Assembly: GCA_046330515.1 (NCBI GenBank)
Contig: JAXLSP010000006.1
Span: 55,068 to 119,067, forward strand
Origin: Nocardioidaceae bacterium
GTDB taxonomy: Bacteria; Actinomycetota; Actinomycetes; Propionibacteriales; Nocardioidaceae
Direction: 5' to 3'
Length of the DNA stretch: 64,000 nt
The notes below the pieces were generated by a model. That model did not search any database. It worked only from the letters and a program-made list of their open reading frames with translations, and was not told the DNA's origin. The first letter of the stretch is position 1, and each line of letters begins with the position of its first letter. The position numbers and the translations under genes are program-made. Positions 3,949 through 21,891 of the stretch are shown here, one piece after another.

Positions 3949-3982
3949 CCGTCGGGGCAGCGTGCGCCATGGGGGGTAGCCG

Positions 3983-5818
3983 GTGTCCGACCAGATCGCC
4001 GAGAGCCAGTCTCTGGGTCTCGGCCGTTACGTCACCGTGCTCAAGCGGCGCCGCTACGTCGTGCTCCTGGGTGTCCTCCTCGGCCTCGCGGCGGGGGTGC
4101 TCTACCTCCAGGCGAAGCAGACGCACAGCACGGCCTACACCCTGGTCAACATCAACGTCATCTCCAGCGACCCGTTCACCTTCGTGAAGTCGCCGTCGGA
4201 GCTGCTCGACTCGCAGAACGAGATCCAGTCCGCGCGCTCCTCCGACGTCCTCAAGGCGGCGGCCACGACGCTCGGCACCGACCAGCCGATCCTCGACATG
4301 CGGGCCAACCTCGACGTCAGCCTGCTCCAGAACGGCACCGTCGTCCGCGTGACCTACCAGGCCGACACACCCCGCGCCGCACGTGAGGGCGCGGACGCGA
4401 TCGCGGAGTCCTACCTCGTCTACCGCGGTGCCCAGGCCGCCAAGCGTGCCGACACCATCGTGGGTCAGCTCGAGGCTCAGAAGACCGATGCGATCGCCGC
4501 GCTGACCGAGGCCAACAAGAAGGTCAGCAGCACGACCCCCGGGTCGAGCGCCCGGATCGACGCCGAGTCCGACCAGCAGGCGGCACTGGCTGAGATCAAC
4601 TCGATCTCGACGTCTCTCAACAGCCTCTACAGCCTCGACACCAACGGCGGAAACGTCTATGCGTCCGCCGCTGACAACCCGGTCACCACCAGCCCGCGCC
4701 GCGTGCTGACCCTCGCCTCGGGGCTGGGCGCGGGCCTCCTCCTCGGCCTCTCGCTCGCCTTCCTGGTCAACGTCATCGACCGCCGGGTCCGCGACGACTA
4801 CGACGTCGCCGGCGCCCAGGCCGGCCGGGTGATCCTGACGCTCCACGGTCGCCACGCGCTGCTGCCGGCCCAGGGCGACGACCGCGACTCCGTCGCCGCG
4901 GCGCGCGAGCGCCTGCTGGCCGACTTCGACCCCAACGGCGGCGTGCTGGCGATCCTCGACCTGAGCCGCGGGCACGGCCCCTCCGACGCGCCGGTCAACC
5001 TGGCCCTCGCCATCGCCGAGTCCCACGCCGGCTGCGACCTCATGCTCCCGGAGTGGCCGGTCGAGCACCTCGAGCAGCTGCTGGCGGCGCTGGGCGTCGA
5101 CGAGGTCCGCAGCGACCGCCCCGCCTTCATCGACGAGCTGGACATGCGGGTCATCACGCGGCCCGACATCGACCACTCGCTCAGCGGCGGCTGGATGAAC
5201 GTGCTGCGCGACAGCATCGCCGAGAACGACCCGACCCGCTGCCTGGTGATCGCCGTTCCGCCCAAGGCGTCGCGCGCGGTGCGGCTGGCGGCCGCCCGGC
5301 TCGCGGACGCGACGCTGCTGGTCGCCGAGCTGTCGGCCACCCGCATCGGCGACCTCGCCCAGCAGGCGACCGACCTGCAGGCCGTGCACTCCGACGTCAG
5401 CGGCACCATCCTGGTCGGCCACCGCAGGTCGACGGAGTATGTCCTCGCGCCCGAGCCGTTCGAGCACGAGGAGCACCACGAGCACGAGGAGCACCAGGAG
5501 CGCGAGGAGCACCAGGAGCGCGAGGTGCGCGGTCAGCACCAGGCGACCGAGCCCGTCGACCACGAGCCCGGCGACGACGAGCTCGAGCCGGACCTCCAGC
5601 AGCCCACCCACGTGGACACCGACGACGCTGCCGACGTCGACGCACGTCCTGTCGACGACCACGACGCCGCCGAGCCCGTCGAGCCGCACGGGGGCGAGGG
5701 CGGGCCGGCGGTCGAGGACACCGAGGTCGGGCAGTCGGCCGGGCGTGAGATGGCGCGTGTCTATGAGGCGGCCCGGAGGCTGGCGGAGCGCTCCTCCAAG
5801 CAGCGCGCCCGGAGCTAG
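3983..5818 (+). CDS. Wzz-like chain-length determinant fused to a degenerate BY-kinase-like domain and a His/Glu/Asp-rich tail
   Basis: GTG start. The N-terminus LGRYVTVLKRRRYVVLLGVLLGLAAGVLYL is Wzz-like and a second TM lies near aa 240. The C-domain aligns by eye to the BY-kinase fold, but Walker A reads GHGPSD. Tail is HEEHHEHEEHQEREEHQERE. Confidence 0.65.
   Translation: MSDQIAESQSLGLGRYVTVLKRRRYVVLLGVLLGLAAGVLYLQAKQTHSTAYTLVNINVISSDPFTFVKSPSELLDSQNEIQSARSSDVLKAAATTLGTDQPILDMRANLDVSLLQNGTVVRVTYQADTPRAAREGADAIAESYLVYRGAQAAKRADTIVGQLEAQKTDAIAALTEANKKVSSTTPGSSARIDAESDQQAALAEINSISTSLNSLYSLDTNGGNVYASAADNPVTTSPRRVLTLASGLGAGLLLGLSLAFLVNVIDRRVRDDYDVAGAQAGRVILTLHGRHALLPAQGDDRDSVAAARERLLADFDPNGGVLAILDLSRGHGPSDAPVNLALAIAESHAGCDLMLPEWPVEHLEQLLAALGVDEVRSDRPAFIDELDMRVITRPDIDHSLSGGWMNVLRDSIAENDPTRCLVIAVPPKASRAVRLAAARLADATLLVAELSATRIGDLAQQATDLQAVHSDVSGTILVGHRRSTEYVLAPEPFEHEEHHEHEEHQEREEHQEREVRGQHQATEPVDHEPGDDELEPDLQQPTHVDTDDAADVDARPVDDHDAAEPVEPHGGEGGPAVEDTEVGQSAGREMARVYEAARRLAERSSKQRARS
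5486..5521 (+). repeat. Perfect 18-bp tandem duplication (gaggagcaccaggagcgc x2) inside the Wzz-like gene
   Basis: Read directly: 5486-5503 equals 5504-5521. Encodes EEHQER EEHQER. Confidence 0.9.
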
Positions 5819-5822
5819 GGGC

Positions 5823-7334
5823 ATGGACCCCGAACCCAGCGGCTCGCGAGAGCTGCGCGCCGCCGCTCGCGGCGGGGCGCTGACCCTGGTCGGTTCCGCG
5901 CTCAGCGCGGCCCTGGGCTTCACCTTCGGCATCGTGCTCGCGCGCCTGCTCGGCGCCCACGACTCCGGCGTCGTCGTCCAGGCGATCGCGGCCTTCACCA
6001 TCGCGCTGAGCATCGGACGGATCGGTGCCGACACCTGCGCGGTCTGGATCCTGCCGCCGATGGTCGGCAGCGAGCCGCGACGGGTGCGGTCGACCACGGC
6101 CCTCCTGCTGGCGATGGCCGTCGCCGGGACCGGGGTGCTCGCCCTCGGGTGGTGGGTCGTGCAACGGCTGGCGGGGACCCCCGAGTCGAGCGGGCGCGCG
6201 GCCGTGGTCTCCGCGATGACGGCGACCGCCCCGTTCCTGCCCGCGGCCGCGGTCATGGTGGTCGCCCTGGCGGCGACCCGGGCGTTCGGCGGGGTGCTGC
6301 CCTTCAACCTGATCACCAACATGCTGACCCCCGGGCTCCGCGTCGTCCTCGTCGTGGTGGTCGTGCTGGCCGGTGGTGGCGTCGTCACCGTCAGCCTCAC
6401 CTGGGGCCTCGTCTGGGTGGCGGGAGCCGTCGCCGCGCTCGCGGTGCTGGTCCGCCAGATGCGCGCGGCCACGCCGCCCGGCTGGGGCGACCGGCCTCCC
6501 TACCGCGAGGTGCTGCGGTTCTCCCTCCCGCGGGCGGTGTCGTCGGCGCTCGAGCAGTCGGTGATCTGGTTCGACGTCCTGCTGGTCGGCCTCATCGCCG
6601 GCAACGGGCCGGCGGGTGTCTATGGTGCGGCGAGCCGGTTCGTCGCCGCCGGGATCATCGTCTCCACGGCCGTCCGCATCGTCGTCGCCCCGCGGTTCAG
6701 CGCGCTGCTCGCCCAGGGACGGCTGCCCGAGCTGCGCCAGCTCTACTCCGTCACCGCGCGGTGGATCCTCGTCTTCGGAGCCCCCATCTATCTCGGGCTG
6801 GCGATCTATGCGCCCACCGTGCTGTCCTGGCTGGGCCCCGGCTTCTCCAGCGGTGTCCCGGCGATGGTCATCCTGTGCCTGGGCTCGGTCGTGGTGCTCG
6901 CGGCGGGCAACGTGCAGTCGCTGCTGCTGATGAGCGGACGCAGCTCCTGGGCCGCGGTGAACAAGTCGATCGTGCTGGCCTTCAACGTGGTGGGGAACCT
7001 GATCCTCATCCCGCGCATCGGCATCACGGGCGCGGCGATCGTCTGGGCGGCGAGCATGCTGGTCGACACGGTCCTGGCCGCCTGGCAGACGCATCGCGCG
7101 ACCCAGGTGGCCGTCGAGGTGCGCGAGGTGCTGCGCACGGGCGCCCTCGTCGCGGTCTCCGTCATGGTCCCCGCCGGAGCGGTCGCCTGGCTGCTCGGCC
7201 AGGGCACCGTGTCCCTGCTGGTGGCGGCGGTCCTGAGCGTGACGGGGCTGCTCACGATGGCCTACCTGGACCGGGACAGGCTGCAGCTCTCGGAGCTCCG
7301 CGGCATCCGCGGCCGGTCGCGTCAGGTCGCGTAG
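5823..7334 (+). CDS. Wzx-type polysaccharide flippase (MOP superfamily)
   Basis: Inner ATG at 5823 of ORF 5439..7334. Polytopic, with N-terminus LTLVGSALSAALGFTFGIVLARLLG typical of polysaccharide biosynthesis (Wzx) proteins. Confidence 0.75.
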   Translation: MDPEPSGSRELRAAARGGALTLVGSALSAALGFTFGIVLARLLGAHDSGVVVQAIAAFTIALSIGRIGADTCAVWILPPMVGSEPRRVRSTTALLLAMAVAGTGVLALGWWVVQRLAGTPESSGRAAVVSAMTATAPFLPAAAVMVVALAATRAFGGVLPFNLITNMLTPGLRVVLVVVVVLAGGGVVTVSLTWGLVWVAGAVAALAVLVRQMRAATPPGWGDRPPYREVLRFSLPRAVSSALEQSVIWFDVLLVGLIAGNGPAGVYGAASRFVAAGIIVSTAVRIVVAPRFSALLAQGRLPELRQLYSVTARWILVFGAPIYLGLAIYAPTVLSWLGPGFSSGVPAMVILCLGSVVVLAAGNVQSLLLMSGRSSWAAVNKSIVLAFNVVGNLILIPRIGITGAAIVWAASMLVDTVLAAWQTHRATQVAVEVREVLRTGALVAVSVMVPAGAVAWLLGQGTVSLLVAAVLSVTGLLTMAYLDRDRLQLSELRGIRGRSRQVA

Positions 7335-7343
7335 AGTCTCGCC

Positions 7344-8237
7344 GTGGCAGCTTCCTTGAAGGACCGTTCCCCGCGCTGGCTGAAGTCGGGCGCCGACCAG
7401 CTGACGCGTCGCTACGCGATGGCCACGGTCGCCGACCGGCCCGCGCCCGACTTCCTCATCATCGGGACCAAGCGCGGCGGGACCACCTCGCTGTTCAACT
7501 ACCTGCTGCAGCACCCGGGCATCCTCGGGCTCTACCCGCAGAACCGCGGCAAGAAGAGCACCGACTACTTCTTCAAGGAGCTCCCGCGCGGCGACGCCTG
7601 GTATCGCTCGCACTTCCACAGCCGCACCTACCGCGCCACGCTGCGCAAGCGCCTGGGCTACACCCCCGTCGGGGGCGAGGCCTCGCCCTACTACATGTGG
7701 GACCCGCGGATCGCGCCCCTCGTGGCGCACGCCGCCCCCCAGGTCAAGGCGATCGCCCTCGTGCGCGACCCCGTCGAGCGGGCCTACTCGCACTACCAGG
7801 AGCGCAAGCAGAACGGCGTCGAGCCGCTCACCTTCACCGAGGCGCTGGCCGCCGAGGAGGAGCGCACCGCCGGCGAGGTCGACGCGATGATGGCCGACTC
7901 CCGCTACTACAGCTCGGCCCACGACTTCTACACCTACCGGGCACGCGGCCTCTATCTCCCGCAGCTGCAGCAGTGGGCCGACGCCCTGGGACGTGACCAG
8001 CTCCTGGTGCTGCGCAGCGAGGACATGTACGCCGACGTCAACGGCGTCTTCGCCGAGACCTGCCGCTTCCTGGGACTGCCCGAGCACCAGCTGGCCCGGC
8101 GGGGGCCCTTCAACGCCCGCCACCGGCAGTCGGACATGCCCGACGCCGACCGGGCGGAGCTGACGGCCTTCTATGCGCCGCACAACGCGGCCCTGGAGGA
8201 GTGGCTCGGGCGTCCGCTCGACTGGTCGAAGCCCTGA
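7344..8237 (+). CDS. PAPS-type sulfotransferase
   Basis: FLIIGTKRGGTTSLFNYL (5'-PSB) and LVRDPVERAYSHY (3'-PB). Alternative start ATG at 7419. Confidence 0.8.
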   Translation: MAASLKDRSPRWLKSGADQLTRRYAMATVADRPAPDFLIIGTKRGGTTSLFNYLLQHPGILGLYPQNRGKKSTDYFFKELPRGDAWYRSHFHSRTYRATLRKRLGYTPVGGEASPYYMWDPRIAPLVAHAAPQVKAIALVRDPVERAYSHYQERKQNGVEPLTFTEALAAEEERTAGEVDAMMADSRYYSSAHDFYTYRARGLYLPQLQQWADALGRDQLLVLRSEDMYADVNGVFAETCRFLGLPEHQLARRGPFNARHRQSDMPDADRAELTAFYAPHNAALEEWLGRPLDWSKP

Positions 8238-9703: not shown

Positions 9704-12700
9704 ATGATTCGACGTGGGGTGACGTCGGCGCTTGCCGCCGGCGCGATGATTCTGACCGCCCTCGTGGCGACGAGCCCGAGCGCGACCGCCGCGATCAACC
9801 CGAGCGTCATCGGGACGAGCGCCGCGACCGCTGCCGGCTCCTGCTGGGAGATCAAGCAGCTGCGGCCGTCGGCGACCGACGGCGCCTACTGGCTCCTGAC
9901 GCCCAAGATGGTCGAGCCGCAGCAGTTCTACTGCGACATGACCACCGACGGTGGCGGCTGGGTGCTGGTCGGCAAGGGGCGCGAGGGCTGGACCAACGAG
10001 TACCAAGGCAAGGGCAGCGCCAGCGACCTGCTGACGCCGACGCTCAGCCCGATGTCCTCGGTGACCACCCAGCTCGGGGGCGACACGATCAACGCGCTGC
10101 TCAACGGCGGCCGCGTCGACGCGCTGTCCGAGGGCATCCGCCTGCGCCGGGCCACCAACACCACGGGCACCAGCTGGCAGGAGGTGCGCTTCAAGCTGTC
10201 CAGCCGCGACCGCTGGGCGTGGACCTTCGGCGCCGAGCACACGCTGGGCACCTGGTCCTTCGACAACTCCACCGGCTCCGGCGGCACCACGCCGTCCTTC
10301 GGCTCCAACAACAGCACGCGGCGCGTCGTGAACACGACGGCGCAGGCGCAGACCTACAAGCTCGGCTTCGCCTTCGGCTCCCAGGTCAGCGGCTCCAACT
10401 CCGACACGACCTACCTCTGGTCGGCCACCAACGGTGGTGGCGGCGCGCTGCCCTACACGATGGTCTACCTGCGGCCCCGCGTCCTCTCCACCGATGCCGG
10501 CTTCACGGCCATCCCCGACGGGGGCCTCGGCCAGAAGGTCAACATCAGCGTCGCCAAGAACAACGCGATCAGCCCGCCCTGGGGCGTGGCCGGCATGGCC
10601 GGTGCCGTCAGCATCGAGGGCAGCGTCGAGGTGCAGGCCTTCACGCAGTCCGGCAACAACATGTACGTCGGCGGCAACTTCGGTTATGTCCAGCGTGACG
10701 AGGCCGGCACCGACCGGGTCGACCAGCCGTTCCTGGCCGCGTTCGACGTCACGACCGGCGAGCTCGTGCAGAGCTTCCGGCCGGTGCTCAACGAGCAGGT
10801 CCGCGCCCTGACCACGCTGCCCAACGGCAACGTCGTCGCCGGTGGTGACTTCACGCAGGCCAACGGCGTCGCCGTCGGTGCGATGGTCGTGCTCGACCCG
10901 ACCACGGGGGCGACCGTGCCGGGCTGGAACACCAAGGTCCTCCAGAACGGCACCACCAACCCGCTGCGCGTCTGGACGCTCCAGGCCGCGCACGGCTGGA
11001 TCTATGTCGGCGGGACCTTCACCCACCTCCAGGGTGGGACCAAGCCCAACGTGCAGGTCGCCGCGAAGAACCTCGGCCGCATGGACAGCGCGACGTTCAC
11101 CCCCGACACGACGTGGCTGCCCAAGCCCAACGCGGGCGTCGAGGCTCTGGACGCGTCCGACGACGGCACCCGGCTCTACGCCGCCGGCCACTTCACCATC
11201 GTGACCGGCGTCTCCGCGGTCAGCGCTGCGGTGATCTCGACCTCCTCCGGTGCGGCGGTCACGCCGTGGGCGCCGGTCTGGAGCGCGTCGAAGACCTACC
11301 AGCAGGCCATCGACGAGGTCGGCGGTCGGCTCTGGGTCGGCGGGTCGGAGCACAACCTGTTCTCCTACGACACCCCGACGCTCAACCGCCTGTCCGGGAA
11401 CATCTTCCAGAAGAACGGTGACATCCAGGGGATCACCGACGACCGCGGTGTCGTCTACGCCGGCTGCCACTGCAACAACTTCAACTACTCCAACGCCTTC
11501 CGGTGGACGACGCCGGTGCCCGCCGGCTGGACCCAGGCCGACGCCCTCAACTGGTTCGGGGCCTGGGACGCCAACACCGGCCAGGTGATCCAGCAGTTCA
11601 CCCCGTCGTTCCGGATGCGGCTGGGATCGGGCATCTGGGCCCTGCAGGCCGACACGACGGGCACGCTGTGGGCCGGCGGCGACATCGAGGCGGTCAGGAC
11701 CGGCACCAAGGCCGCGGCCTGGGCCGGTGGGTTCGCGCGGTTCGCCCGCACGGACACCGAGCCGCCGCCGGTGCCGACCAACCTGCGGGTGAGCTCCTAT
11801 GACGACACCTCGGTGTCGCTGGCCTGGGGTGCCAACGGCGCCGGCGGCAGCACGCGCTACCTGGTGCTCCGCGACGACCGTCCGATCGCCACCACGTCGG
11901 CCACGTCGATCACGGTGCCTCGAGGCGGGTCCGACCGCTACTTCGTCCGCTCGATCGACACCGACGGCAACGCGTCGGCCACGACGTCGGTCACGGCGCT
12001 GCCGGCCAACACCAAGCCGACGGCCGCGTTCAGCTCGACCGTGGACGCGACGGGGGCGCACTTCGACGGGTCCGGCTCCAGCGACCCGGACGGCAGCGTC
12101 GTCAACTGGTCGTGGAGCTTCGGCGACGGCGGCACGGGCTCCGGTCAGAACGTTGACCACGTCTACGCCGCGCCGGGCACCTACCAGGTCACCCTGACGG
12201 TGCTGGACAACCTCGGCGCGACGGCGTCGGTCACCAACCCGGTCGTCATCAGCTCCGGGATCCAGACGCAGGTCAAGATCGCGCGCCTGTCCGGCTGGGC
12301 CTGGTACTACGCCGGGACGGCGCCGCCGGCCGGCTGGAACACCAACGGCTTCGACGACTCCGCCTGGTCGACGGGCAACGCCGTGCTCGGGTTCCCGTCC
12401 ACCGCGGTGGCGACCAACATCGACACCTTCGCCACGACGTCGCTGCGGGCCAAGACGGCCTACTTCCGCAAGACGTTCCAGGTGGCCGACGTGTCCAAGG
12501 TGACGAGGCTGGCCATCACGGCCGTCGCCAACGACGGTGCGGTGGTCTATGTCAACGGGGTCGAGGTGGCCCGGCAGAACATGCCGGCCGGCACGATCAC
12601 CTTCGACACCTTCGCCTCGACGGCGCGCAGCGCCGCCACGGCGAACGCCAACCCCATCGTGGTGGACATCCCGCTGAACCTGCTGGTCGACGGGACCAAC

Positions 12701-12787
12701 ACGGTGAGCGTCGAGACCCACCTCAACTACCGCAACACCCCCGACGTGACGTTCGACCTGGACGCCACGGCCTATGTGAACCAGTAG
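9704..12787 (+). CDS. Secreted multidomain protein: fibrinogen-related domain + beta-propeller-like repeats + FN3 + PKD + CBM-like C-terminal domain
   Basis: ATG at 9704 preceded by GGGGGAG. Signal peptide ends SATA/AINP. FReD motif is SCWEIK...FYCDMTTDGGGWVLVG...YTMVYLRP. Repeats carry a GG(N/D/T)F(T/G)xV signature. PKD signature is FDGSGSSDPDGSVVNWSWSFGDGGTG...YAAPGTYQVTLTV. Confidence 0.85.
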   Translation: MIRRGVTSALAAGAMILTALVATSPSATAAINPSVIGTSAATAAGSCWEIKQLRPSATDGAYWLLTPKMVEPQQFYCDMTTDGGGWVLVGKGREGWTNEYQGKGSASDLLTPTLSPMSSVTTQLGGDTINALLNGGRVDALSEGIRLRRATNTTGTSWQEVRFKLSSRDRWAWTFGAEHTLGTWSFDNSTGSGGTTPSFGSNNSTRRVVNTTAQAQTYKLGFAFGSQVSGSNSDTTYLWSATNGGGGALPYTMVYLRPRVLSTDAGFTAIPDGGLGQKVNISVAKNNAISPPWGVAGMAGAVSIEGSVEVQAFTQSGNNMYVGGNFGYVQRDEAGTDRVDQPFLAAFDVTTGELVQSFRPVLNEQVRALTTLPNGNVVAGGDFTQANGVAVGAMVVLDPTTGATVPGWNTKVLQNGTTNPLRVWTLQAAHGWIYVGGTFTHLQGGTKPNVQVAAKNLGRMDSATFTPDTTWLPKPNAGVEALDASDDGTRLYAAGHFTIVTGVSAVSAAVISTSSGAAVTPWAPVWSASKTYQQAIDEVGGRLWVGGSEHNLFSYDTPTLNRLSGNIFQKNGDIQGITDDRGVVYAGCHCNNFNYSNAFRWTTPVPAGWTQADALNWFGAWDANTGQVIQQFTPSFRMRLGSGIWALQADTTGTLWAGGDIEAVRTGTKAAAWAGGFARFARTDTEPPPVPTNLRVSSYDDTSVSLAWGANGAGGSTRYLVLRDDRPIATTSATSITVPRGGSDRYFVRSIDTDGNASATTSVTALPANTKPTAAFSSTVDATGAHFDGSGSSDPDGSVVNWSWSFGDGGTGSGQNVDHVYAAPGTYQVTLTVLDNLGATASVTNPVVISSGIQTQVKIARLSGWAWYYAGTAPPAGWNTNGFDDSAWSTGNAVLGFPSTAVATNIDTFATTSLRAKTAYFRKTFQVADVSKVTRLAITAVANDGAVVYVNGVEVARQNMPAGTITFDTFASTARSAATANANPIVVDIPLNLLVDGTNTVSVETHLNYRNTPDVTFDLDATAYVNQ

Positions 12788-12794
12788 CACGTTC

Positions 12795-12843: not shown

Positions 12844-13050
12844 GACCTCCTTTACACCCGGCCGCGCCGTCTGTCCGGCGAACGACCCGAATGAACCCGG
12901 TAACTGAGGAGATCTGCCCGATCGGGCAACCGCCTAGTCCACCATGACCAGCGGGAAATGGCAAGGCCTATCGATGCCCTTGCCGGGACCTTTCTGGAAG
13001 CGTTTGGGACGCACCACTCAGCTATCTCGGGAGCTTTTCGGAGGTCGTCC

Positions 13051-14742
13051 ATGCCCACAGAAGGCACGCGTCCCCGCAGGTCAGAACGTCTGTCCTGGGG
13101 GATGACCGTCGCTGCTTTGACCTTCGCCGGGGGAATCATCCCCGGCGTTTCTCTTGCCGCGGCGCAAACTGCTACGCCGGCGGTCACGAGCCATGCGGCC
13201 GTGACCACGGTCAGCCTGTCCAAGTCCGTCCGCGACCGGGTCATCCCGCACCGCGTGCGGAGGCCGGGCGACCTGGCGCGCAGCACCTATGACCGCAACA
13301 TCGTCTTCGTCACCGACCGCGTCCACGGTCGGTCCCGGCTCGTCGCCATCGGCCCCAAGGGCCGCGTGGTCGGCAGCATCGACGTCGCCGGCGCCCAGAC
13401 CCGCGCCTGGCGCTCGGTCGCGGCCGGCGGGTCTCACGGCCTGTGGATCGCCGACATCGGCGACCCGCAGCGCACCCGCAGCACCATCCAGCTCTTCCGC
13501 TTCCGCGAGCCGCGCAACCTCCGCGGCAACCGGCGGGTCACCCCGGTCCGCTATGACCTGCGCTACCCCGACGGTGCACACCCCGCGTCGGCCCTGCTCG
13601 TCAACCCCGCGACCAGCGACGTCTACGTCGTGACGCGCGACGCCTCCGGCGGCGGGATCTACCAGGCCCCGGACGCCCTGTCCTCCTCGGCCGTCAACGA
13701 CCTCGTGCGCGTCGCGGACGCCCCCGACCAGGTGACCGGCGGCGGCTTCTCGGCGGCCGGTCTGCGCGTCGTGCTCAGCAGCCCGCGCAAGATCCTCGTC
13801 GGCTCCTCGCTGACGGCACAGCCGGACGCCATCGCGGTGCCGGACGGCTTCGGCGCGGCCAACGCGGAGTTCTCGCGCACGGGCGACACCGTGCTCGTCA
13901 ACGGCGCCCCCGCCCGCCGGGTGATCGGCGCGCTCCGGTGGCACCGCCACCCGAAGCCGTCGCCCTCGCCGACCCCGACGGACCCGACCACGACGCCCCC
14001 GTCGTCCCCGCCGCCCACCACCACCCCGCCGACCGGCTGGACGCTGAACCTCGCCGAGGAGTTCGGCTCGCTCGACACCACGCGGTGGAAGCTGCGCGAC
14101 CACCAGTGCTACGCCCGCGACAGCGCCGCGGTGCTGGCCCGCAACGACACCGTGTCCGACGGCTCGCTGCGCGTCCAGGGCAAGCTGGAGTCCAGCGACG
14201 GCCGCAGCTACACCAGCGGCGACCTCGACACCTACGGCACCTACTCGCTGCCGAACTACTTCCGCATCGAGGTGCGCGCCAAGGTGCCGTTCGAACAGGG
14301 CATGTGGGCGGCCCCGCTGTGGATCCGCCCCAGCGACGGCTCGTCCGGCGAGATCGACCTCATCGAGACCTACGGCAGCGAGGCCGCGCGCCCGATCATC
14401 CACCAGACGATCCACTCGGCCTACGGCACGACCCACCAGCAGACGCACCTCCAGACGCCGTACTCCAAGGTGAGCACGCTCCCGGCCACGGACTGGCACA
14501 CCTACGTGGTGGAGAAGACCAAGGGTGAGATCCGGATGTGGGTCGACGGCACCCAGACGGCGCTCTTCAACACCAGCAACACGCCGTGGTTCAACACCTA
14601 CTACGAGGTCGGCAAGCGCTGGAGCCTCCGGGCGTCGCTGCAGATCGGCGGCGGTCAGGGCCTGCCCGACTCCACCACCGACTGGGCTCCGGACAAGACC
14701 GCCATGCTGGTCGACTACATCCGCACCTACACCCAGGGCTAG
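13051..14742 (+). CDS. Secreted protein: unknown N-terminal domain + Pro/Thr linker + GH16 glycoside hydrolase domain
   Basis: ATG at 13051 after GGAGG. Signal peptide ends SLAAAQT. Linker is PSPSPTPTDPTTTPPSSPPPTTTPPTG. GH16 catalytic motif is GEIDLIETYG. Confidence 0.8.
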   Translation: MPTEGTRPRRSERLSWGMTVAALTFAGGIIPGVSLAAAQTATPAVTSHAAVTTVSLSKSVRDRVIPHRVRRPGDLARSTYDRNIVFVTDRVHGRSRLVAIGPKGRVVGSIDVAGAQTRAWRSVAAGGSHGLWIADIGDPQRTRSTIQLFRFREPRNLRGNRRVTPVRYDLRYPDGAHPASALLVNPATSDVYVVTRDASGGGIYQAPDALSSSAVNDLVRVADAPDQVTGGGFSAAGLRVVLSSPRKILVGSSLTAQPDAIAVPDGFGAANAEFSRTGDTVLVNGAPARRVIGALRWHRHPKPSPSPTPTDPTTTPPSSPPPTTTPPTGWTLNLAEEFGSLDTTRWKLRDHQCYARDSAAVLARNDTVSDGSLRVQGKLESSDGRSYTSGDLDTYGTYSLPNYFRIEVRAKVPFEQGMWAAPLWIRPSDGSSGEIDLIETYGSEAARPIIHQTIHSAYGTTHQQTHLQTPYSKVSTLPATDWHTYVVEKTKGEIRMWVDGTQTALFNTSNTPWFNTYYEVGKRWSLRASLQIGGGQGLPDSTTDWAPDKTAMLVDYIRTYTQG

Positions 14743-14797
14743 GCCCCGGGCCACAACCCGGAGCGATACCCGGTCTAGACAGCAGCACGCAGCACCG

Positions 14798-14833
14798 CGA
14801 CCACGCCAGCCGGTTGTCCGGCTGGCGTGGTCG
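14798..14833 (+). terminator. Intrinsic terminator-like hairpin
   Basis: Perfect 16-bp stem CGACCACGCCAGCCGG / CCGGCTGGCGTGGTCG with loop TTGT, followed by GCTCTTCTCC. Confidence 0.6.
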
Positions 14834-14915
14834 GCTCTTCTCCGGACCCTCGGTGGCGTGTGATACTCCTCCCCAACGGGGTGGTGGGGACCCCCTTGAG
14901 CAGTGGGGACGTTTC

Positions 14916-17360
14916 ATGCGCCGGATGGGGACGGTGGTGGCGCTGCTGTGCGCCACGTTGATGATGGTCATGCCGGCGAGCCCGGCGTCCGCGGACGCCC
15001 AGGTCTTCGTCGACTCGACGCCCAGCCCGAGCTGGCAGGTCGACGGGACGGTCTACACGACGCTGATCGTGGGTGACACGGTCTTCGTGGGAGGCGAGTT
15101 CTCCAACGCGGTGAGCCCGACCGGCCAGCTGGTGGCCCGCAAGAACCTCGCGGCCTTCTCGATGGCCACCGGTGCGCTCATCACGACCTGGAAGGCCGAC
15201 GCGGGCAACGTCGTGCGTGGCCTGGTGTCCGACGGCACCTCGCTCTGGGTGGCCGGCAACTTCCTGAAGCTCGGCGGGCTCAACCGCTCGCGGCTCGCCA
15301 AGGTCGACGTCGCCTCGGGTGTGGTGGACCCCGCCTTCGCGCCCACCTTCGACAACTCGATCCGCGCGGTCGCACTCGACAACGGCTCGATCTATGCGGG
15401 TGGCCAGTTCCTGAACGTCAACGGTGTCGCCAAGAACCGGATCGCCAAGCTCAACGCGACCACCGGGAGCCTGGTCACGTCGTTCACGACGTCGGCCAGC
15501 AGTGCCGTCTACGCCGTCAAGGCGTCGCCGGTGTCGGACGCCGTCTACATCGCCGGCAACTTCGGCACGGTCAACTCGGTGACCCGCAACGGCGTGGCCG
15601 CCGTGACCAAGTCGACCGGAGCGATCACCGGCCCTGCCTTCGCCTCCTCGGCGAAGCCGACGTTCGGCCTCGACGTCTCGCCCGACGGCACCCAGCTGTT
15701 CGGTGCCGGCGGCGGGCCCACCAACGCCGCGGCGGCCTGGAACGCCGCCACCGGAACGCGCACGTGGCGCGTCGTGGCGGACGGCGACATCCAGGTCATC
15801 AAGTACTTCGGTGGCACGGCCTACTTCGGCTTCCACGACGGCTACCAGCTCGACCCGCACGTGCACGTCATGGCCGTCGACGCCAAGACCGGGGCGATCG
15901 ACACCAGCTTCTGGCCCTCGGTCATCGGCTTCTGGGGACTCTGGGCCCTCGACATCACCGACGAGGGCATGGCCATCGGCGGCGACTTCACCACGGTGGC
16001 CGGCATCCCCGCCCAGGGCTGGGCCCGGTTCCCGCGGTCGGGCGACCTGCCTCCGCCGCCGCCCGTCCAGACGGAGTACCTCGGCACCTCCACCGGCTGG
16101 AGCTACTGGGACAAGGGCACCATGCCGGCGGGGTGGAGCACCGAGGGCTTCGACGCGAGCTCCTGGGCCACCGGCCTCGCGCAGCTGGGCTACGGCGACG
16201 GCGACGAGTCCACGGTCGTGTCCTACGGCCCGTCGGCCTCGGCGAAGTACATCACCACCTACTTCCGGGCCACGTTCGACGTCACGACGGTCCCCGACCA
16301 GCTGAACCTCTACCTCGCCGCCGACGACGGCGCGGTGGCCTATGTCAACGGCACCGAGGTGGTGCGGGACAACATGCCCGCCGGCACGATCACCAACACC
16401 ACCCGGGCGAGCACCGGCCGCTCCGGCGGCGGCGAGAACGCGCTCCGGCAGTTCGCGGTCAACCCCGCGGTGCTGCACCCCGGCACCAACACGCTCGCGG
16501 TGGAGGTCCACCAGGACACCCCGACCTCAACGGACCTGACCTTCGACGGCAGCCTCGTCGGCATCGTCGTGCCTCCGTCCAACGACCCGCCGACAGCGTC
16601 GTTCACGTCCGCGGCGGCGGGCTACACCATCTCCTACGACGGCACCGCGTCGACCGACACCGACGGCGCGGTGACCGACTGGCACTGGGACTTCGGTGAC
16701 GGCAGCACCGGGACCGGCGCCACGGTCGACCACACCTACGCCGCGGAGGGCACCTACACCGTGACCCTGCGCGTCGCCGACAACGGCGGCGCCCACGGCA
16801 CGGTGGTGCAGTCCCAGCTGGTCCAGTCGCCGACGGTGACCACGACCGCCGTGGCGGCCAACGCGACGTGGTCGTGGCGCTATGCCACGGGCGAGCCTCC
16901 GGCCGGGTGGAACCAGGCCGGGTTCGACGACAGCACCTGGGGGAGCGGCGCCGCGCCGCTCGGGTTCGGCTCGGCGACCATCGCGACCAACGTCGACACG
17001 TTCGCCGACCCGGCGACGCGACCCAAGACCGCCTACTTCCGGCACGGGTTCGACATCGCGGACCTCGCCAAGGTGCAGCAGGTCACGGTCACCACCGTGG
17101 CCGACGACGGTGTCGCCGTCTATGTCAACGGGGTCGAGGTCGGCCGGTCCAACCTGCCCGCCGGGACGCTGACGAGCACGATCTCGGCCAGCTCGGCGCG
17201 ATCCACGACGACCGCCAACAACAACCCGGTGACCTTCACGATCCCCGTGGCACTGCTGGTCCAGGGCGCCAACGTGATCACGGCCGAGACCCACGTCAAC
17301 ACGCGGACGACCGCCGACCTCTCCTTCAAGGCGACGGTGGCGGTCACCGCGCTGCGCTGA
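14916..17360 (+). CDS. Secreted protein: beta-propeller-like repeats + CBM-like + PKD + CBM-like
   Basis: ATG at 14916. Signal peptide ends ASPASADA. About 7 repeats with (Y/W)(V/A)(G/A)G.F..(V/L).G. The W.Y...P.GW...GFD.S.W...A.LG(Y/F)G module occurs twice. PKD signature is YDGTASTDTDGAVTDWHWDFGDGSTG. Confidence 0.85.
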   Translation: MRRMGTVVALLCATLMMVMPASPASADAQVFVDSTPSPSWQVDGTVYTTLIVGDTVFVGGEFSNAVSPTGQLVARKNLAAFSMATGALITTWKADAGNVVRGLVSDGTSLWVAGNFLKLGGLNRSRLAKVDVASGVVDPAFAPTFDNSIRAVALDNGSIYAGGQFLNVNGVAKNRIAKLNATTGSLVTSFTTSASSAVYAVKASPVSDAVYIAGNFGTVNSVTRNGVAAVTKSTGAITGPAFASSAKPTFGLDVSPDGTQLFGAGGGPTNAAAAWNAATGTRTWRVVADGDIQVIKYFGGTAYFGFHDGYQLDPHVHVMAVDAKTGAIDTSFWPSVIGFWGLWALDITDEGMAIGGDFTTVAGIPAQGWARFPRSGDLPPPPPVQTEYLGTSTGWSYWDKGTMPAGWSTEGFDASSWATGLAQLGYGDGDESTVVSYGPSASAKYITTYFRATFDVTTVPDQLNLYLAADDGAVAYVNGTEVVRDNMPAGTITNTTRASTGRSGGGENALRQFAVNPAVLHPGTNTLAVEVHQDTPTSTDLTFDGSLVGIVVPPSNDPPTASFTSAAAGYTISYDGTASTDTDGAVTDWHWDFGDGSTGTGATVDHTYAAEGTYTVTLRVADNGGAHGTVVQSQLVQSPTVTTTAVAANATWSWRYATGEPPAGWNQAGFDDSTWGSGAAPLGFGSATIATNVDTFADPATRPKTAYFRHGFDIADLAKVQQVTVTTVADDGVAVYVNGVEVGRSNLPAGTLTSTISASSARSTTTANNNPVTFTIPVALLVQGANVITAETHVNTRTTADLSFKATVAVTALR

Positions 17361-17361
17361 C

Positions 17362-18252
17362 ATGGCGGACGGCAGGCAGTCCCGGGACGGCGGCGGGTCC
17401 GCCCGCGCTCGCGTGCTCCCGCTCGTCCTCGGGGCCGTGGTGGTCGCGGTCCTCCTCGGAGTCGTGTTCGCCACCCTGCGCCAGCCGGGCTCCCGGCCGG
17501 CCGCCGCGGGACCCGGCTCGGGCCAGCCGCTGCCCGGGCTCACCGGCTGGGAGCCCGACCTGACCGAGGACTTCACCTCGCTCGACCCGTCGGTGTGGAA
17601 CGTCCGGAACCGTCAGCACTACGAGCGCGACGACGCCGAGGTGCTCGCCGCCAACGTCGCCACGCAGGACGGGGCGATCCGGATCCAGGCCAGGCAGCAG
17701 GCCGTCGACGGCCGCAGCTTCACCTCCGGCGACCTGGACACGTTCGGGACCTACTCGCTGCCGAACTACTTCCGGATCGAGGTGAGGGCCAAGGTGCCCT
17801 TCCAGCAGGGCATGTGGGCGGCCCCGCTCTGGATCCGGCCGGCCGACGGATCGGCGGGCGAGATCGACCTCGTCGAGACCTACGGCAGCGAGCGGGACCG
17901 GCCCATCATCCACCAGACGATCCACGGGGACTATGCCGTGCCGGGGCAGCTGACACACCTCCAGACACCGTTCGCAGCGGTGGGCGGTTCGGCCACCGAC
18001 TGGCACACCTACGTGGTGGAGAAGACCCCCGGAGCGATCCGGATGTGGGTCGACGGCGTGCCGACGGCGACCTTCGATGATTCGACCACTCCGTGGTTCG
18101 GCTCCTACTATGAGGCCGGTAAGCGGTGGAGCCTGCGCATGTCGCTGCAGGTAGGCGGCAACCAGGGTCTACCGGACTCGACGACGGACTGGAGCCCGGA
18201 CACGACCTCGATGCTGGTCGACTACGTGCATACCTACGTTCCCCAGAGCTGA
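17362..18252 (+). CDS. GH16 family glycoside hydrolase (membrane-anchored or secreted)
   Basis: ATG starts 2 nt after the previous stop. GEIDLVETYG motif. By eye roughly three quarters identical to the GH16 domain of 13051..14742. Confidence 0.85.
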   Translation: MADGRQSRDGGGSARARVLPLVLGAVVVAVLLGVVFATLRQPGSRPAAAGPGSGQPLPGLTGWEPDLTEDFTSLDPSVWNVRNRQHYERDDAEVLAANVATQDGAIRIQARQQAVDGRSFTSGDLDTFGTYSLPNYFRIEVRAKVPFQQGMWAAPLWIRPADGSAGEIDLVETYGSERDRPIIHQTIHGDYAVPGQLTHLQTPFAAVGGSATDWHTYVVEKTPGAIRMWVDGVPTATFDDSTTPWFGSYYEAGKRWSLRMSLQVGGNQGLPDSTTDWSPDTTSMLVDYVHTYVPQS

Positions 18253-18305
18253 ACCGCGTAGACATCCGCGGACGTCCCAGGAGAGCCGTCACCTAACCCC
18301 CGAAG

Positions 18306-19289
18306 GTGATTCTCGTGGCAACACCCCCCCACAACAGATCCCTGCGCGCCTCGTTGGCCATCGCGGCCACCACGGCTGCCTCCCTCGTGGTGCCCCTGCT
18401 GGGCACCGGGGCAGCTCCCGTGGCGTCCGCGGCGGCGCCCACGCCCTCGGCGCGACTGTCGGCCGCCTGTCTGGCACCCACGCCGGCCAAGCTCGCCGAC
18501 CCGCACTTCGGCGTCAGCCTCTCGGCGAACCCCACGCTCGCCGACGACCGCGCCACCGAGCAGCGGAGGTTCGGCAGGCTGCCGATCGCCCGCATCTACG
18601 ACCCGTCCATCCCGCCGTCGAACGCCTGGGAGCGACGCAAGCCCCAGCTGAAGGGGATGAGCGTCATCACCTCCTTCCGGATGGCGCCCCAGGAGGTGCT
18701 GGCCGGACGCTACGACTCCCAGCTGCGCCAGTTCTTCGCCACCGCGCCGCGCAAGCGCGACGTGTTCTGGAGCTACTTCCACGAGCCCGAGCCCAACATC
18801 GACGCCGGCCAGTTCACCGCGCGCCAGTACCGCCGGGCCTGGCGGCACATCGCCACCATCGCCGGCTCGCTGTGCCGGCCCCGCCTCTACCCGACGCTCA
18901 TCCTCACCGGATGGACCGCCGAGAGTGCGTCCGGGCGCAGCTGGCGCGACTACTACGCGGGCGACCGCTTCGTGTCGGTGCTCGGGTGGGACCCCTACAA
19001 CCAGGCCGTCGGCACCCCGCGCACCTATCGCGCGCCGCGCGATGTGTTCGGCGCGGTCGTGCGCGCCTCGCACCGGTCCGGCAAGCCCTGGGGACTCGCC
19101 GAGACCGGCACCGCGCGGGTGTCGGGCGACGGCGGCGCGGGACGCGCCAGGTGGATCGCCCGGTCGGGCCGCTACCTCATGCGCAAGGACCCGCTGTTCG
19201 TGAGCTACTTCCAGTCGACGAACAAGGGGGACTTCGAGCTGCGCGACAGCCCGTCGATCCGCGCCTACCGCAAGCTGGTGCAGTCCTGA
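18306..19289 (+). CDS. Secreted putative clan GH-A glycoside hydrolase (GH26/GH5-like); family unassigned
   Basis: Signal peptide. Candidate acid/base motif WSYFHEPE and nucleophile motif WGLAETG, with spacing typical of (beta/alpha)8 GH-A enzymes. By-eye call only. Confidence 0.5.
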   Translation: MILVATPPHNRSLRASLAIAATTAASLVVPLLGTGAAPVASAAAPTPSARLSAACLAPTPAKLADPHFGVSLSANPTLADDRATEQRRFGRLPIARIYDPSIPPSNAWERRKPQLKGMSVITSFRMAPQEVLAGRYDSQLRQFFATAPRKRDVFWSYFHEPEPNIDAGQFTARQYRRAWRHIATIAGSLCRPRLYPTLILTGWTAESASGRSWRDYYAGDRFVSVLGWDPYNQAVGTPRTYRAPRDVFGAVVRASHRSGKPWGLAETGTARVSGDGGAGRARWIARSGRYLMRKDPLFVSYFQSTNKGDFELRDSPSIRAYRKLVQS

Positions 19290-19296
19290 CCGGTCT

Positions 19297-19320
19297 GGAC
19301 CAGCCGTGACCGGCTGGACC
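19297..19320 (+). terminator. Possible terminator hairpin after the GH-A-like gene
   Basis: GGaCCAGCCG-tgac-CGGCTGGaCC, 8 nt after the stop at 19289. Confidence 0.35.
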
Positions 19321-19499
19321 GAGCGTGGCTCCCCCCAGGTAAACGCAGGCTTGCCTACGTGACCCGCATTACCCCACTTTGCCCGGCAAGAACAGACCCC
19401 TAGGGGCGCTGACTTCCACGCCGGGGTGACTTACGATCGATCCACTCGCCTCGGGGCGATCGTCATGTTCGTATGCGTCACGCTTGTGGGGAGCCACGC

Positions 19500-21863: not shown

Positions 21864-21891
21864 CGGATCGCTCCAGCTAGGGTGGGGCATC

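What the first reader, a model, noticed from the sequence alone, without database searches (positions are those of the whole stretch)
9836..10480. Full-length fibrinogen-related domain (FReD) at the N-terminus of an actinobacterial secreted protein
Right after the signal peptide the protein reads SCWEIKQLRPSATDGAYWLLTPKMVEPQQFYCDMTTDGGGWVLVGKGREGW ... LGGDTINALLNGG...IRLRR ... ALPYTMVYLRP. This tracks the animal ficolin/fibrinogen C-terminal domain landmarks: (S)C.(E/D)I...G....G.Y.I.P......V.CDM.TDGGGWTV.QRR ... LGN..I..L......LR..L ... MK.RP.

FReDs are typical of metazoan innate-immune lectins (ficolins, tachylectins, FREPs) and are rare in bacteria. Here the domain is fused to a propeller, FN3, PKD and CBM-like module. 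That suggests either lateral acquisition or an ancient bacterial lectin lineage. The animal Ca/ligand-site region (the P subdomain) looks divergent and Ser/Thr/Gly/Asn-rich.
Basis: partly seen in the sequence, partly recalled or inferred. Interest (0 to 1): 0.7.

Follow-up and report, generated by a model that had tools for sequence, protein, structure and literature searches.

The report
Diverged fibrinogen-like domain, actinobacterial secreted protein
The stretch encodes a real but strongly diverged fibrinogen-like domain at the start of a secreted Nocardioidaceae protein; public databases already annotate it, the family is common in Actinomycetota, and it probably acts as a sugar-polymer-binding module tied to a surface-polysaccharide gene cluster.

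Summary
Window 9836-10480 encodes residues 45-259 of a 1027-aa secreted protein (ATG 9704 to stop 12787). The SCWEIK...YCDMTTDGGGW...LRP landmarks are present.

A high-confidence AlphaFold model (pLDDT 93) matches only fibrinogen-related domains (FReDs) in the PDB: probability 1.0, E about 2e-7. The fit is loose, with TM 0.40-0.48. Significant sequence similarity covers only the first 55-65 residues. The animal calcium loop and second disulfide are absent. It is therefore FReD-like over its full length, but about as diverged as I recall intelectins to be.

It is neither rare nor new. The exact protein is NCBI MFN8195872.1, "fibrinogen-like YCDxxxxGGGW domain-containing protein". NCBIfam NF040941 scores 78 bits. 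At least 388 tblastn-confirmed matches were found in species-representative genomes. All but one of the 79 loci kept are titled Actinomycetota.

In 94 of 98 long relatives the domain sits directly before one particular beta-propeller. In 48 of 79 loci it lies within 6 kb of Wzy, Wzx, Wzz or GT2 polysaccharide genes.

Best reading: a lectin-like targeting module for a cell-surface glycopolymer. This is inferred, not shown. Composition (GC3 0.98) and conserved gene order argue against recent transfer from animals. Interest is modest.

The parts
9704..12787 (+). Gene for the 1027-aa secreted multidomain protein (stop codon included). Identical to NCBI MFN8195872.1.
   Evidence: ORF. GC3 0.96. Exact-sequence look-up. 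SD-like GGGGGAG upstream of ATG 9704.
9704..9793 (+). Predicted Sec signal peptide (MIRRGVTSALAAGAMILTALVATSPSATAA). The cleavage site is approximate.
   Evidence: Read from the sequence. Homologues have equivalent basic-then-hydrophobic N-termini, and the domain starts at residue 35-65 in most of 128 relatives. No signal-peptide predictor was run.
9821..9985 (+). FReD A subdomain plus the first B strand (residues 40-94). Holds SCWEIK...YCDMTTDGGGWVLVGKGR, and the Cys47-Cys77 pair is invariant in the family.
   Evidence: NF040941 at residues 46-89, 78 bits. PF00147 profile positions 14-56. XEEL/intelectin E 7e-10 to 5e-9 and tenascin 4e-6 with the family profile. hhalign probability 97% to ITLN1.
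9986..10279 (+). B-subdomain-like region (residues 95-192): helix DTINALL, then strands IRLRRA, WQEVRFKL, TLGTWSF.
   Evidence: DSSP of the model. Colinear low-stringency hhalign to ficolins. Foldseek alignments span about 250 columns. No significant sequence similarity on its own.
10280..10456 (+). P-subdomain-like hypervariable region (residues 193-251), rich in Ser, Thr, Gly and Asn. No calcium-loop aspartates and no cysteine pair.
   Evidence: Domain positions 154-195 within this part have mean column entropy 2.61 bits and 5.4 inserted residues per sequence, against 1.19 bits and 0 for the A subdomain. The model is confident here, pLDDT 93-98. FGSNNSTRRV aligns with ficolin FSTKDQDNDL.
10457..10480 (+). 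Final strand of the domain (YTMVYLRPR), the counterpart of the animal ...MK(V/I)RP ending.
   Evidence: Strand E213-217 in the model. R218 and P219 are nearly invariant. A sub-threshold HMMER pairing with tenascin-R PFVEMKMRP and hhalign.
10550..11773 (+). Beta-propeller (residues 283-690), constantly paired with the FReD-like domain. Conserved GGSEH, GDxQ and GCHC motifs.
   Evidence: Weak DUF5122 and Rax2 hits. 94 of 98 long relatives have this propeller, with a median gap of 8 residues after the FReD-like domain. Alignments A3 and A4. No relative of solved structure by sequence.
11774..12007 (+). FN3-like module (residues 691-768).
   Evidence: Sequence pattern PTNLRV...SLAW...YLVLRD...YFVRSIDTDGN. 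11 of 41 aligned relatives hit PF00041. The query itself is below the Pfam reporting level.
12011..12238 (+). PKD domain (residues 770-845).
   Evidence: PF18911 at 4.3e-21 and PF00801 at 3.4e-14.
12281..12784 (+). C-terminal jelly-roll, CBM-like module (residues about 860-1027).
   Evidence: PF14683 'PL4 domain III CBM-like' at E 0.0055, below threshold. The same module hits at 1.7e-6 in the neighbouring paralogue and in 5 of 41 relatives.
47..8237 (.). Upstream polysaccharide genes: sulfotransferase (47-1132 +), GT2 (1129-2040 +), Wzy-like (2557-3948 -), Wzz/EpsF-like (3983-5818 +), Wzx flippase (5439-7334 +), second sulfotransferase (7344-8237 +).
   Evidence: Pfam and NCBIfam hits. Homologues of these genes lie within 6 kb of a family member in 48 of 79 genome loci.
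12958..22674 (+). Downstream same-strand run: GH16 (12958-14742), propeller-CBM-PKD-CBM paralogue (about 14916-17360), GH16 (17362-18252), unknown (18306-19289), propeller-LamG paralogue (19473-21863), CysQ-like phosphatase (21892-22674).
   Evidence: Propeller paralogy at 29% and 23% identity in A4. Start positions checked.

Best explanation
Residues 40-259 form a strongly diverged fibrinogen-related (FReD-like) domain. It is the N-terminal module of a secreted protein with no LPXTG anchor motif.

The family is old and abundant in Actinomycetota. Its invariable core is signal peptide, FReD-like domain, a particular beta-propeller, and usually FN3. Variable carbohydrate-binding-type modules follow; here they are PKD and a CBM-like jelly roll.

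Most likely mechanism (inferred): the FReD-like domain is a lectin-type recognition module. Its conserved A and B subdomains are the scaffold. Its hypervariable P-like region contacts the ligand, as in animal FReD lectins. The ligand is probably the strain-specific, possibly sulfated, cell-surface or exopolysaccharide made by the adjacent Wzx/Wzy-dependent cluster. Binding would hold or position the propeller and the other modules on that polymer.

Shown: the fold, the family membership, the domain pairing and the gene neighbourhood. Inferred: ligand binding, the identity of the ligand and the role of the propeller.
For: Fold:
- Two independent models (pLDDT 84 and 93.4) match only FReDs in the PDB. 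Probability is 1.00, E is 2e-7 to 7e-6, and alignments span about 250 columns.
- TMq of 0.40-0.46 cannot come from the 50-residue A subdomain alone.
- Cyanophage fibre-like 'fibrinogen C-terminal domain' proteins match at TMq 0.50-0.53.

Sequence:
- NF040941 scores 78 bits.
- Both A-subdomain cysteines, the GGGW motif and the terminal RP are invariant or nearly so.
- A relaxed hhalign to ficolins is colinear to the last residue.

Module logic:
- The domain starts within about 125 residues of the N-terminus in 125 of 128 relatives.
- 94 of 98 relatives are followed at once by the same propeller.
- Partner domains are binding-type (fn3, PKD, CBM-like, LamG, RGI_lyase beta-sheet, BetaGal-binding) and no catalytic Pfam family appears.
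- None of 139 relatives has LPXTG in its last 60 residues.

Ligand-site logic: the P-like region is the most variable and the most indel-rich part.

Context:
- Wzy homologues occur in 42 of 79 loci, Wzx in 29, GT2 in 27 and sulfotransferase in 14, all within 6 kb and across many genera.
- In the window the gene sits between Wzz/Wzx/sulfotransferase and GH16 enzymes related to EPS-trimming ExoK/EglC.
Against: - No binding data exist for any member.
- TM stays below 0.5 against every solved FReD.
- Profile similarity to animal FReDs is significant only for the first 55-65 residues.
- The calcium loop, the second disulfide and the residues that line the animal acetyl pocket are not conserved. Animal-type ligand chemistry therefore cannot be assumed.
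- High variability in the P-like region could simply reflect weak constraint.
- Gene neighbourhood shows association, not physical interaction. 31 of 79 loci showed none of the four marker genes, though many of those are short contigs.
- The propeller has conserved His, Asp and Gln residues. It might be the functional centre, with the FReD-like domain in a structural role.
Confidence: 0.5

Rival explanations
1. Carbohydrate-binding module of an enzyme. The conserved propeller would be a polymer-specific lyase or hydrolase of the kind most EPS operons encode, and the FReD-like domain would be its substrate-targeting module.
For: The FReD-like domain and the propeller are always paired. The propeller has near-invariant polar residues: GGSEH, GDxQ and the His of GCHC. 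GDxQ and that His are also kept in the two FReD-less paralogues. Relatives carry PL4-type accessory domains, RGI_lyase beta-sheet and CBM-like. GH16 genes are not conserved next to relatives (4-5 of 79 loci), so another enzyme could be needed.
Against: The propeller matches no catalytic family in Pfam or NCBIfam and no PDB sequence. Its only hits are the non-enzymatic DUF5122 and Rax2 repeat models.
Confidence: 0.25
2. Cell-wall retention module. The FReD-like domain would bind acetylated sugars of peptidoglycan or a wall polymer, as ficolins, tachylectin-5A and FIBCD1 bind acetyl groups, and so keep an otherwise anchorless protein on the cell.
For: None of 139 relatives has LPXTG in its last 60 residues. 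The domain sits directly after the signal peptide. The FReDs matched by Foldseek are acetyl-group lectins, solved with GlcNAc, GalNAc or ManNAc.
Against: Acetyl-pocket and calcium-site residues are not conserved. A conserved ligand such as peptidoglycan would predict a conserved, not hypervariable, P-like region.
Confidence: 0.15
3. Recent horizontal acquisition of an animal FReD or intelectin gene fragment by this bacterium.
For: The A subdomain is 52-54% identical to vertebrate intelectin-1 and XEEL over 46 residues.
Against: GC3 is 0.98, like host genes such as mfd at 0.97. There are hundreds of diverged actinobacterial relatives. Gene order is conserved, including proximity to mfd here and in Rothia. 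Overall structure-based identity to animal FReDs is only 15-19%.
Confidence: 0.03
4. Only the 46-residue YCDxxxxGGGW motif is fibrinogen-like, and the remaining 170 residues are an unrelated fold.
For: All significant sequence similarity is confined to that part. Other bacterial proteins carry the B+P-like part without the motif, so the two parts can occur apart.
Against: TMq of 0.40-0.53 over about 250 aligned columns, with FReDs the only strong PDB hits, needs more than 100 superposed residues. The helix and strand order after the motif and the terminal strand match ficolins colinearly.
Confidence: 0.07

Closest known systems
NCBIfam NF040941 (GGGWT_bact), 'fibrinogen-like YCDxxxxGGGW domain-containing protein'
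   Same: The protein scores 78 bits against a cut-off of 30. The identical sequence already carries this name in NCBI, as do relatives from Mycetocola, Propionicimonas and Actinomadura.
   Different: The model covers only 46 residues. It says nothing about the other 170 residues of the domain, the constant propeller partner or function. No paper using the name was found in the library searched.
Animal fibrinogen-related domains: ficolins, tachylectin-5A, FIBCD1, angiopoietins, tenascins (Pfam PF00147)
   Same: Same overall fold by Foldseek (probability 1.0). Same A-subdomain disulfide and CDM-x-TDGGGW motif. Same order of secondary-structure elements. Same C-terminal ...RP strand. Similar size, about 215 residues.
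   Different: TM is only 0.40-0.48 with 15-19% identity. The Pfam hit is partial and borderline. There are no calcium-loop aspartates, no P-subdomain disulfide and no conserved acetyl-pocket residues. The domain is N-terminal rather than C-terminal, and it is fused to a propeller rather than to collagen or coiled-coil stalks.
Intelectins / X-type lectins (human ITLN1, Xenopus XEEL)
   Same: These are the best sequence matches of the A subdomain: E 7e-10 to 5e-9 with the family profile, hhalign probability 97%, and 52-54% identity over 46 residues. From my own knowledge, not tested here, intelectins are also FReD-like only at the N-terminus and diverged elsewhere.
   Different: No alignment beyond about residue 67. 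The PDB chains matched are longer, 279-333 residues. From my own knowledge, intelectins use calcium to bind exocyclic diols. No intelectin appears among the 50 Foldseek hits listed.
Cyanophage fibre-like 'fibrinogen C-terminal domain' proteins (Prochlorococcus phage P-SSM4 Q58LR8, Synechococcus phages S-ShM2 and S-CAM8)
   Same: These give the highest TM scores of any comparison, TMq 0.50-0.53 at probability 1.0. They are prokaryote-world FReD-like domains in presumed receptor-binding proteins.
   Different: They are predicted structures only, with 17-19% identity. The domain sits in a different setting, in proteins of 341-358 residues, one of them named a collagen NC1 domain protein. Their function is also untested.

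Membership tests
NCBIfam NF040941 (bacterial fibrinogen-like YCDxxxxGGGW domain) | Score above the curated cut-off of 30 bits | tested here: met
   78.1 bits for the whole protein and 79.0 bits for the excised domain, at residues 46-89. The identical protein is named accordingly in NCBI.
Canonical FReD (Pfam PF00147 Fibrinogen_C) | Profile match above the gathering threshold over most of the 221-position model | tested here: not met
   21.4 bits for the whole protein against a threshold of 22, and 24.3 bits for the domain alone. Only profile positions 14-57 are matched. Only 10 of 41 relatives reach E<1e-3.
Canonical FReD (Pfam PF00147 Fibrinogen_C) | A-subdomain disulfide and the CDM-x-x-(D/G)GGGW motif | tested here: met
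   C8, C38, G44, G45 and G46 are invariant, and D39 and W47 are at least 90% conserved, in 47 diverse relatives. The motif is aligned to ficolin, tenascin and intelectin.
Canonical FReD (Pfam PF00147 Fibrinogen_C) | Three-subdomain FReD fold (A, B, P) | tested here: inconclusive
   Foldseek returns FReDs at probability 1.00 and E about 2e-7 over about 250 columns. But TM is 0.40-0.48 and rmsd is 7-10 A with a pLDDT-93 model. Per-residue superposition was not available, so which subdomains fit could not be shown directly.
Canonical FReD (Pfam PF00147 Fibrinogen_C) | Calcium site in the P subdomain (Asp-rich loop, DxDxD type) | tested here: not met
   The region aligned to ficolin-2 FSTKDQDNDL reads FGSNNSTRRV. 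No acidic column is conserved there in 128 sequences. The alignment in this region has low confidence.
Canonical FReD (Pfam PF00147 Fibrinogen_C) | Second (P-subdomain) disulfide flanking the ligand pocket | tested here: not met
   The domain has only two cysteines, both in the A subdomain (sequence). No other conserved Cys column exists.
Canonical FReD (Pfam PF00147 Fibrinogen_C) | Binding of acetylated or sulfated ligands, or of peptide knobs | not testable with these tools
   Needs recombinant protein and glycan arrays or ITC.
Intelectin / X-type lectin | Similarity across the whole intelectin domain, including its calcium and ligand-site residues | tested here: not met
   Alignments to ITLN1, XEEL and lamprey serum lectin stop at query residue 54-67. 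The bacterial domain is about 215 residues, and the intelectin-family chains matched are 279-333 residues.
Actinobacterial FReD-like + propeller core family (defined here) | N-terminal position after a signal peptide, followed immediately by the GGSEH/GDxQ/GCHC propeller | tested here: met
   The domain starts at residue 40 and the propeller follows from about residue 283. The same arrangement holds in 94 of 98 long relatives.

The most novel reading that the evidence does not exclude
FReD-like + propeller + FN3 proteins may be a so far unrecognised, dedicated extracellular component of Wzx/Wzy-dependent surface-glycopolymer pathways across Actinomycetota. The hypervariable P-like region of the FReD-like domain would read the strain-specific polymer, which in some members may be sulfated. 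On this reading, bacterial and phage FReD-like domains of this kind, rather than animal proteins, are the deep root of the fibrinogen/ficolin/intelectin lectin fold.
Probability: 0.25. Interest if true: 0.6.

Novelty: new member of a known kind. Interest (0 to 1): 0.35.

Why it matters
As a discovery it is minor. The protein and its fibrinogen-like motif are already annotated, and the family is common.

What this check adds:
- The whole 215-residue unit is FReD-like, not just the 46-residue motif. It lacks the animal calcium site and second disulfide.
- It is locked to one propeller type.
- It travels with Wzx/Wzy polysaccharide genes in many actinobacterial genera, including culturable and human-associated ones such as Rothia and Actinomyces.

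That gives a concrete, testable idea for an uncharacterised but widespread family. It also bears on where a fold best known from animal innate-immune lectins came from.

Tried and rejected
- Profile-to-sequence and profile-to-profile searches meant to extend significant similarity beyond the A subdomain did not succeed. The family profile against PDB, and hhalign against ficolin-2 and ITLN1, stop at residue 54-67. Only a relaxed hhalign (mact 0.05) runs to the end, and its score comes from the N-terminus.
- I spent one large protein search on ficolin-2 to build a diverse animal FReD profile. It returned only mammalian ficolins at 74% identity or more. It confirmed the recalled sequence but gave a shallow profile.
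- The propeller found no relative of solved structure and no catalytic family.
- The look-up of encoding contigs did not find the exact gene.
- Literature searches for bacterial FReDs, the NCBIfam name or characterised actinobacterial members found nothing relevant. Doolittle et al. 2012 on FReD evolution is not held.
- Consensus promoter and terminator scans around the gene found nothing.
- A second copy of the domain in the window was looked for in all six frames and not found.
- The long antisense ORF 9683-12964 was set aside because it fails the GC3 test that the sense frame passes.
Full report
**What is at the coordinates**

The window is high-GC (0.69-0.75). A single long ORF on the + strand (9605-12787) covers the finding. 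Its frame has GC3 0.96, while the long antisense ORF fails that test. NCBI holds the identical sequence as a 1027-aa protein, which fits a start at ATG 9704. A GGGGGAG run ends 9 nt upstream of that ATG.

The finding's 9836-10480 is residues 45-259, from G-SCWEIK to YLRPR. It lies directly after a basic-then-hydrophobic N-terminus ending in ATAA. I read that as a Sec signal peptide from the sequence alone.

**Is it fibrinogen-like, and over what length?**

Sequence evidence is strong only for the N-terminal quarter.
- NCBIfam NF040941 ('fibrinogen-like YCDxxxxGGGW domain') scores 78 bits against a cut-off of 30, at residues 46-89.
- Pfam PF00147 is borderline: 21.4 bits against a gathering threshold of 22, or 24.3 bits for the excised domain. 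It matches only profile positions 14-57 of 221.
- phmmer against PDB sequences finds intelectin-1 (7.8e-8) and XEEL, then tenascins, angiopoietins, FIBCD1 and fibrinogen beta. All are aligned only to query residues 37-108.
- A 47-sequence family profile (A2) sharpens this to XEEL 6.8e-10, intelectin-1 about 5e-9 and tenascin-R 4e-6. It still stops at position 56-67.
- hhalign of A2 against ficolin-2 and ITLN1 gives 86% and 97% probability over 36 and 49 columns. One search verified the ficolin-2 sequence (99% identity, full coverage to chimpanzee ficolin-2). The aligned ITLN1 segment matches the 4wmq chain printed.
- With a relaxed alignment setting, hhalign against 26 ficolins runs colinearly to the last residue. 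GFAFG falls opposite GAWWY, TYLW opposite GINW, and VYLRP opposite MKVRP. The probability is 89%, but the score comes from the N-terminus.
- HMMER also printed a sub-threshold pairing of the family's C-terminal consensus with tenascin-R's PFVEMKMRP.

Structure evidence covers the whole unit.
- AlphaFold with a 24-sequence alignment gave pLDDT 84. With the 47-sequence alignment it gave pLDDT 93.4 and pTM 0.91, including 93-98 across the P-like region.
- Against the PDB the second model has 150 hits at E<=0.001. All 50 listed for each model are FReDs: angiopoietin, M-, L- and H-ficolin, tenascin, FIBCD1, tachylectin-5A, ANGPTL and fibrinogen.
- Probability is 1.00, E is 2e-7 to 7e-6, and about 250 columns are aligned.
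- However, TM is only 0.40-0.48, rmsd is 7-10 A and identity is 15-19%.
- A TMq near 0.45 needs well over 100 residues to superpose. It cannot come from the 50-residue A subdomain alone. It also falls short of the usual 0.5 rule of thumb for the same fold.
- The order of helices and strands in the model follows that of ficolins: helix CWEIKQL, strands GAYWL, QQFYCD and WVLVGKG, helix DTINALL, strands IRLRRA, WQEVRFKL and TLGTWSF, and a final TMVYL. This mapping rests and my knowledge of FReD sequences.

What is missing is the animal P-subdomain chemistry. The stretch opposite the ficolin calcium loop FSTKDQDNDL reads FGSNNSTRRV, with no conserved acidic column. The domain has only the two A-subdomain cysteines, so the second disulfide is absent.

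I conclude that this is FReD-like over its full length, with the A and B subdomains recognisable and the P subdomain rebuilt. From what I recall of intelectins, it is roughly as far from canonical FReDs as they are.

**How common and how old**

- The exact protein is NCBI MFN8195872.1, 'MAG: fibrinogen-like YCDxxxxGGGW domain-containing protein [Nocardioidaceae bacterium]'.
- A profile search of 1.84 billion cluster representatives found 307 clusters at E<1e-30 and 979 at E<1e-10.
- All but one of the 79 loci kept are titled Actinomycetota: Nocardioides, Arthrobacter, Microbacterium, Rothia, Actinomyces/Schaalia, Amycolatopsis, Planobispora, Acidimicrobiia and others. The exception is one MAG labelled Acidobacteria. 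The best match is a Nocardioidaceae MAG at 73% identity.
- Some genomes hold two or three copies.
- GC3 of the domain is 0.98, like mfd at 0.97.

'Rare in bacteria' and recent transfer from animals are therefore not supported.

Other bacterial arrangements turned up among the representatives:
- giant proteins with 14-15 recognisable repeats of the motif, most spaced about 200-260 residues apart;
- giant proteins carrying the B+P-like part without the A motif.

Cyanophage fibre-like 'fibrinogen C-terminal domain' proteins gave the best TM of all, 0.50-0.53.

**Anatomy of the family**

- In 128 relatives with a complete domain, it starts within about 125 residues of the N-terminus in 125, mostly at residue 35-65.
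- In 94 of 98 relatives long enough to tell, the same beta-propeller follows, with a median gap of 8 residues.
- Conservation runs through the propeller (GGSEH, GDxQ, GCHC) into an FN3-like module (A3).
- A Pfam census of 41 full-length members lists only binding-type partners and no catalytic family: DUF5122/Rax2 propeller repeats, fn3, PKD, PL4 CBM-like, RGI_lyase beta-sheet, LamG and beta-galactosidase-binding domains.
- None of 139 relatives has LPXTG in its last 60 residues.
- Within the FReD-like domain, column entropy is lowest in the A subdomain (1.19 bits). It is highest in the P-like region (2.61 bits), which also takes 5.4 inserted residues per sequence against 0-0.9 elsewhere.

**Neighbourhood**

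Upstream genes:
- a sulfotransferase, a GT2 and a Wzy-like protein;
- a Wzz/EpsF-like protein and a Wzx-type flippase;
- a second sulfotransferase;
- an unassigned 416-aa gene on the minus strand.

Downstream genes, all on the same strand and tightly spaced:
- a GH16 whose best NCBIfam matches are the endo-beta-glycanases EglC and ExoK;
- a propeller-CBM-PKD-CBM paralogue;
- a second GH16 and an unknown gene;
- a propeller-LamG paralogue;
- an inositol-monophosphatase-family protein whose best match is CysQ, below cut-off.

The three propellers are homologous, at 29% and 23% identity. They share an invariant Gln (in GDxQ), a nearly invariant Asp two residues before it, and an invariant His.

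Across 79 genome loci (6 kb either side), tblastn with the window's proteins found homologues as follows:

| Gene | Loci with a homologue |
|---|---|
| Wzy | 42 |
| Wzx | 29 |
| GT2 | 27 |
| Sulfotransferase | 14 |
| Wzz | 12 |
| At least one of Wzy, Wzx, Wzz, GT2 | 48 |

These loci span many genera, and many contigs are short. mfd lies about 12 kb downstream in the window and next to the gene in Rothia, which points to an old, positionally conserved locus. A genome holds only a few Wzy-like genes, so this frequency is far above what a random gene would show. That is my estimate, not a computed control.

**Mechanism**

I favour a lectin-type targeting role. The conserved A and B scaffold would present a variable P-like surface that recognises the polymer made by the adjacent Wzx/Wzy pathway. 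This would place the propeller and the other binding modules on that polymer.

This is inference from fold, architecture, the variability pattern and gene neighbourhood. No binding was tested.

The main rival is that the propeller is a polymer-specific enzyme and the FReD-like domain is its carbohydrate-binding module. A peptidoglycan or acetyl-sugar retention role is a further option. It fits less well with a hypervariable contact region and the loss of the animal pocket residues.

**Verdict**

The item is an already annotated member of a large, uncharacterised actinobacterial family within the FReD superfamily. Interest is modest. The useful outputs are the whole-domain fold assignment, the fixed FReD-like/propeller pairing and the link to polysaccharide loci.

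Noticed in passing
window 47-8237 and 21892-22674: The polysaccharide cluster holds two sulfotransferases (47-1132 and 7344-8237) and an IMPase-family protein whose best NCBIfam match is the PAP phosphatase CysQ (104.6 bits, below the cut-off of 228.8). Together with Wzx, Wzy, Wzz and GT2 this suggests a sulfated surface polysaccharide. To my knowledge such polymers are rarely described in Actinomycetota.
   Followed up: partly
window 10550-11773, about 14916-17360, 19473-21863: Three paralogous beta-propeller proteins sit in one gene run. Only the first carries the FReD-like domain. All share an invariant Gln (in GDxQ), a nearly invariant Asp and an invariant His. There is no PDB sequence relative and no catalytic family hit, so a metal or active site on the propeller is possible.
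   Followed up: partly
window 12958-14742 and 17362-18252: Two GH16 genes whose best NCBIfam matches are the endo-1,3-1,4-beta-glycanases EglC and ExoK, well below cut-off. From memory, ExoK is a succinoglycan-trimming enzyme of rhizobia. They are interleaved with the propeller proteins. The first has a roughly 400-residue N-terminal extension with no family hit.
   Followed up: no
window 8250-9500 (- strand): A 416-aa protein with no Pfam or NCBIfam hit. It carries an HGDLTPWN motif (around 8621) that resembles the catalytic loop of aminoglycoside/choline-kinase-type phosphotransferases. Six of its seven homologue-bearing loci also hold the sulfotransferase homologue.
   Followed up: partly
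window 23218-24786: A bacterial serpin (PF00079, E 3.4e-90) with an N-terminal extension of about 140 residues. It lies between the CysQ-like gene and mfd.
   Followed up: no
proteins P0157, P0175, P0179 and P0155, P0183, P0194: Other bacterial giant proteins (3100-6500 aa) carry either 14-15 recognisable repeats that each start with the SC..IK...YCDM.TDGGGW motif, most about 200-260 residues apart, or 2-3 copies of the B+P-like part without that motif. FReD-like modules are therefore used in several architectures beyond this family.
   Followed up: partly
BFVD hits Q58LR8, E3SJT6, R9TQT3: Predicted structures of Prochlorococcus and Synechococcus myophage fibre-like proteins match the model slightly better (TMq 0.50-0.53) than any solved animal FReD. 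Two of them are named fibrinogen C-terminal or collagen NC1 domain proteins.
   Followed up: no
window 24836-28408; loci L041, L045, L055, L057-L062, L064, L065, L071: mfd (TIGR00580, 1072 bits) lies about 12 kb downstream of the gene here and directly beside the family member in Rothia genomes. This suggests an ancestral chromosomal position for the locus.
   Followed up: partly
window 14538-14915: The mechanical ORF for the second propeller protein overlaps the end of the GH16 gene. An internal start at 14916 (MRRMGTVVALLCATLMMVMPASPASA) gives a signal-peptide-like N-terminus and removes the overlap.
   Followed up: partly
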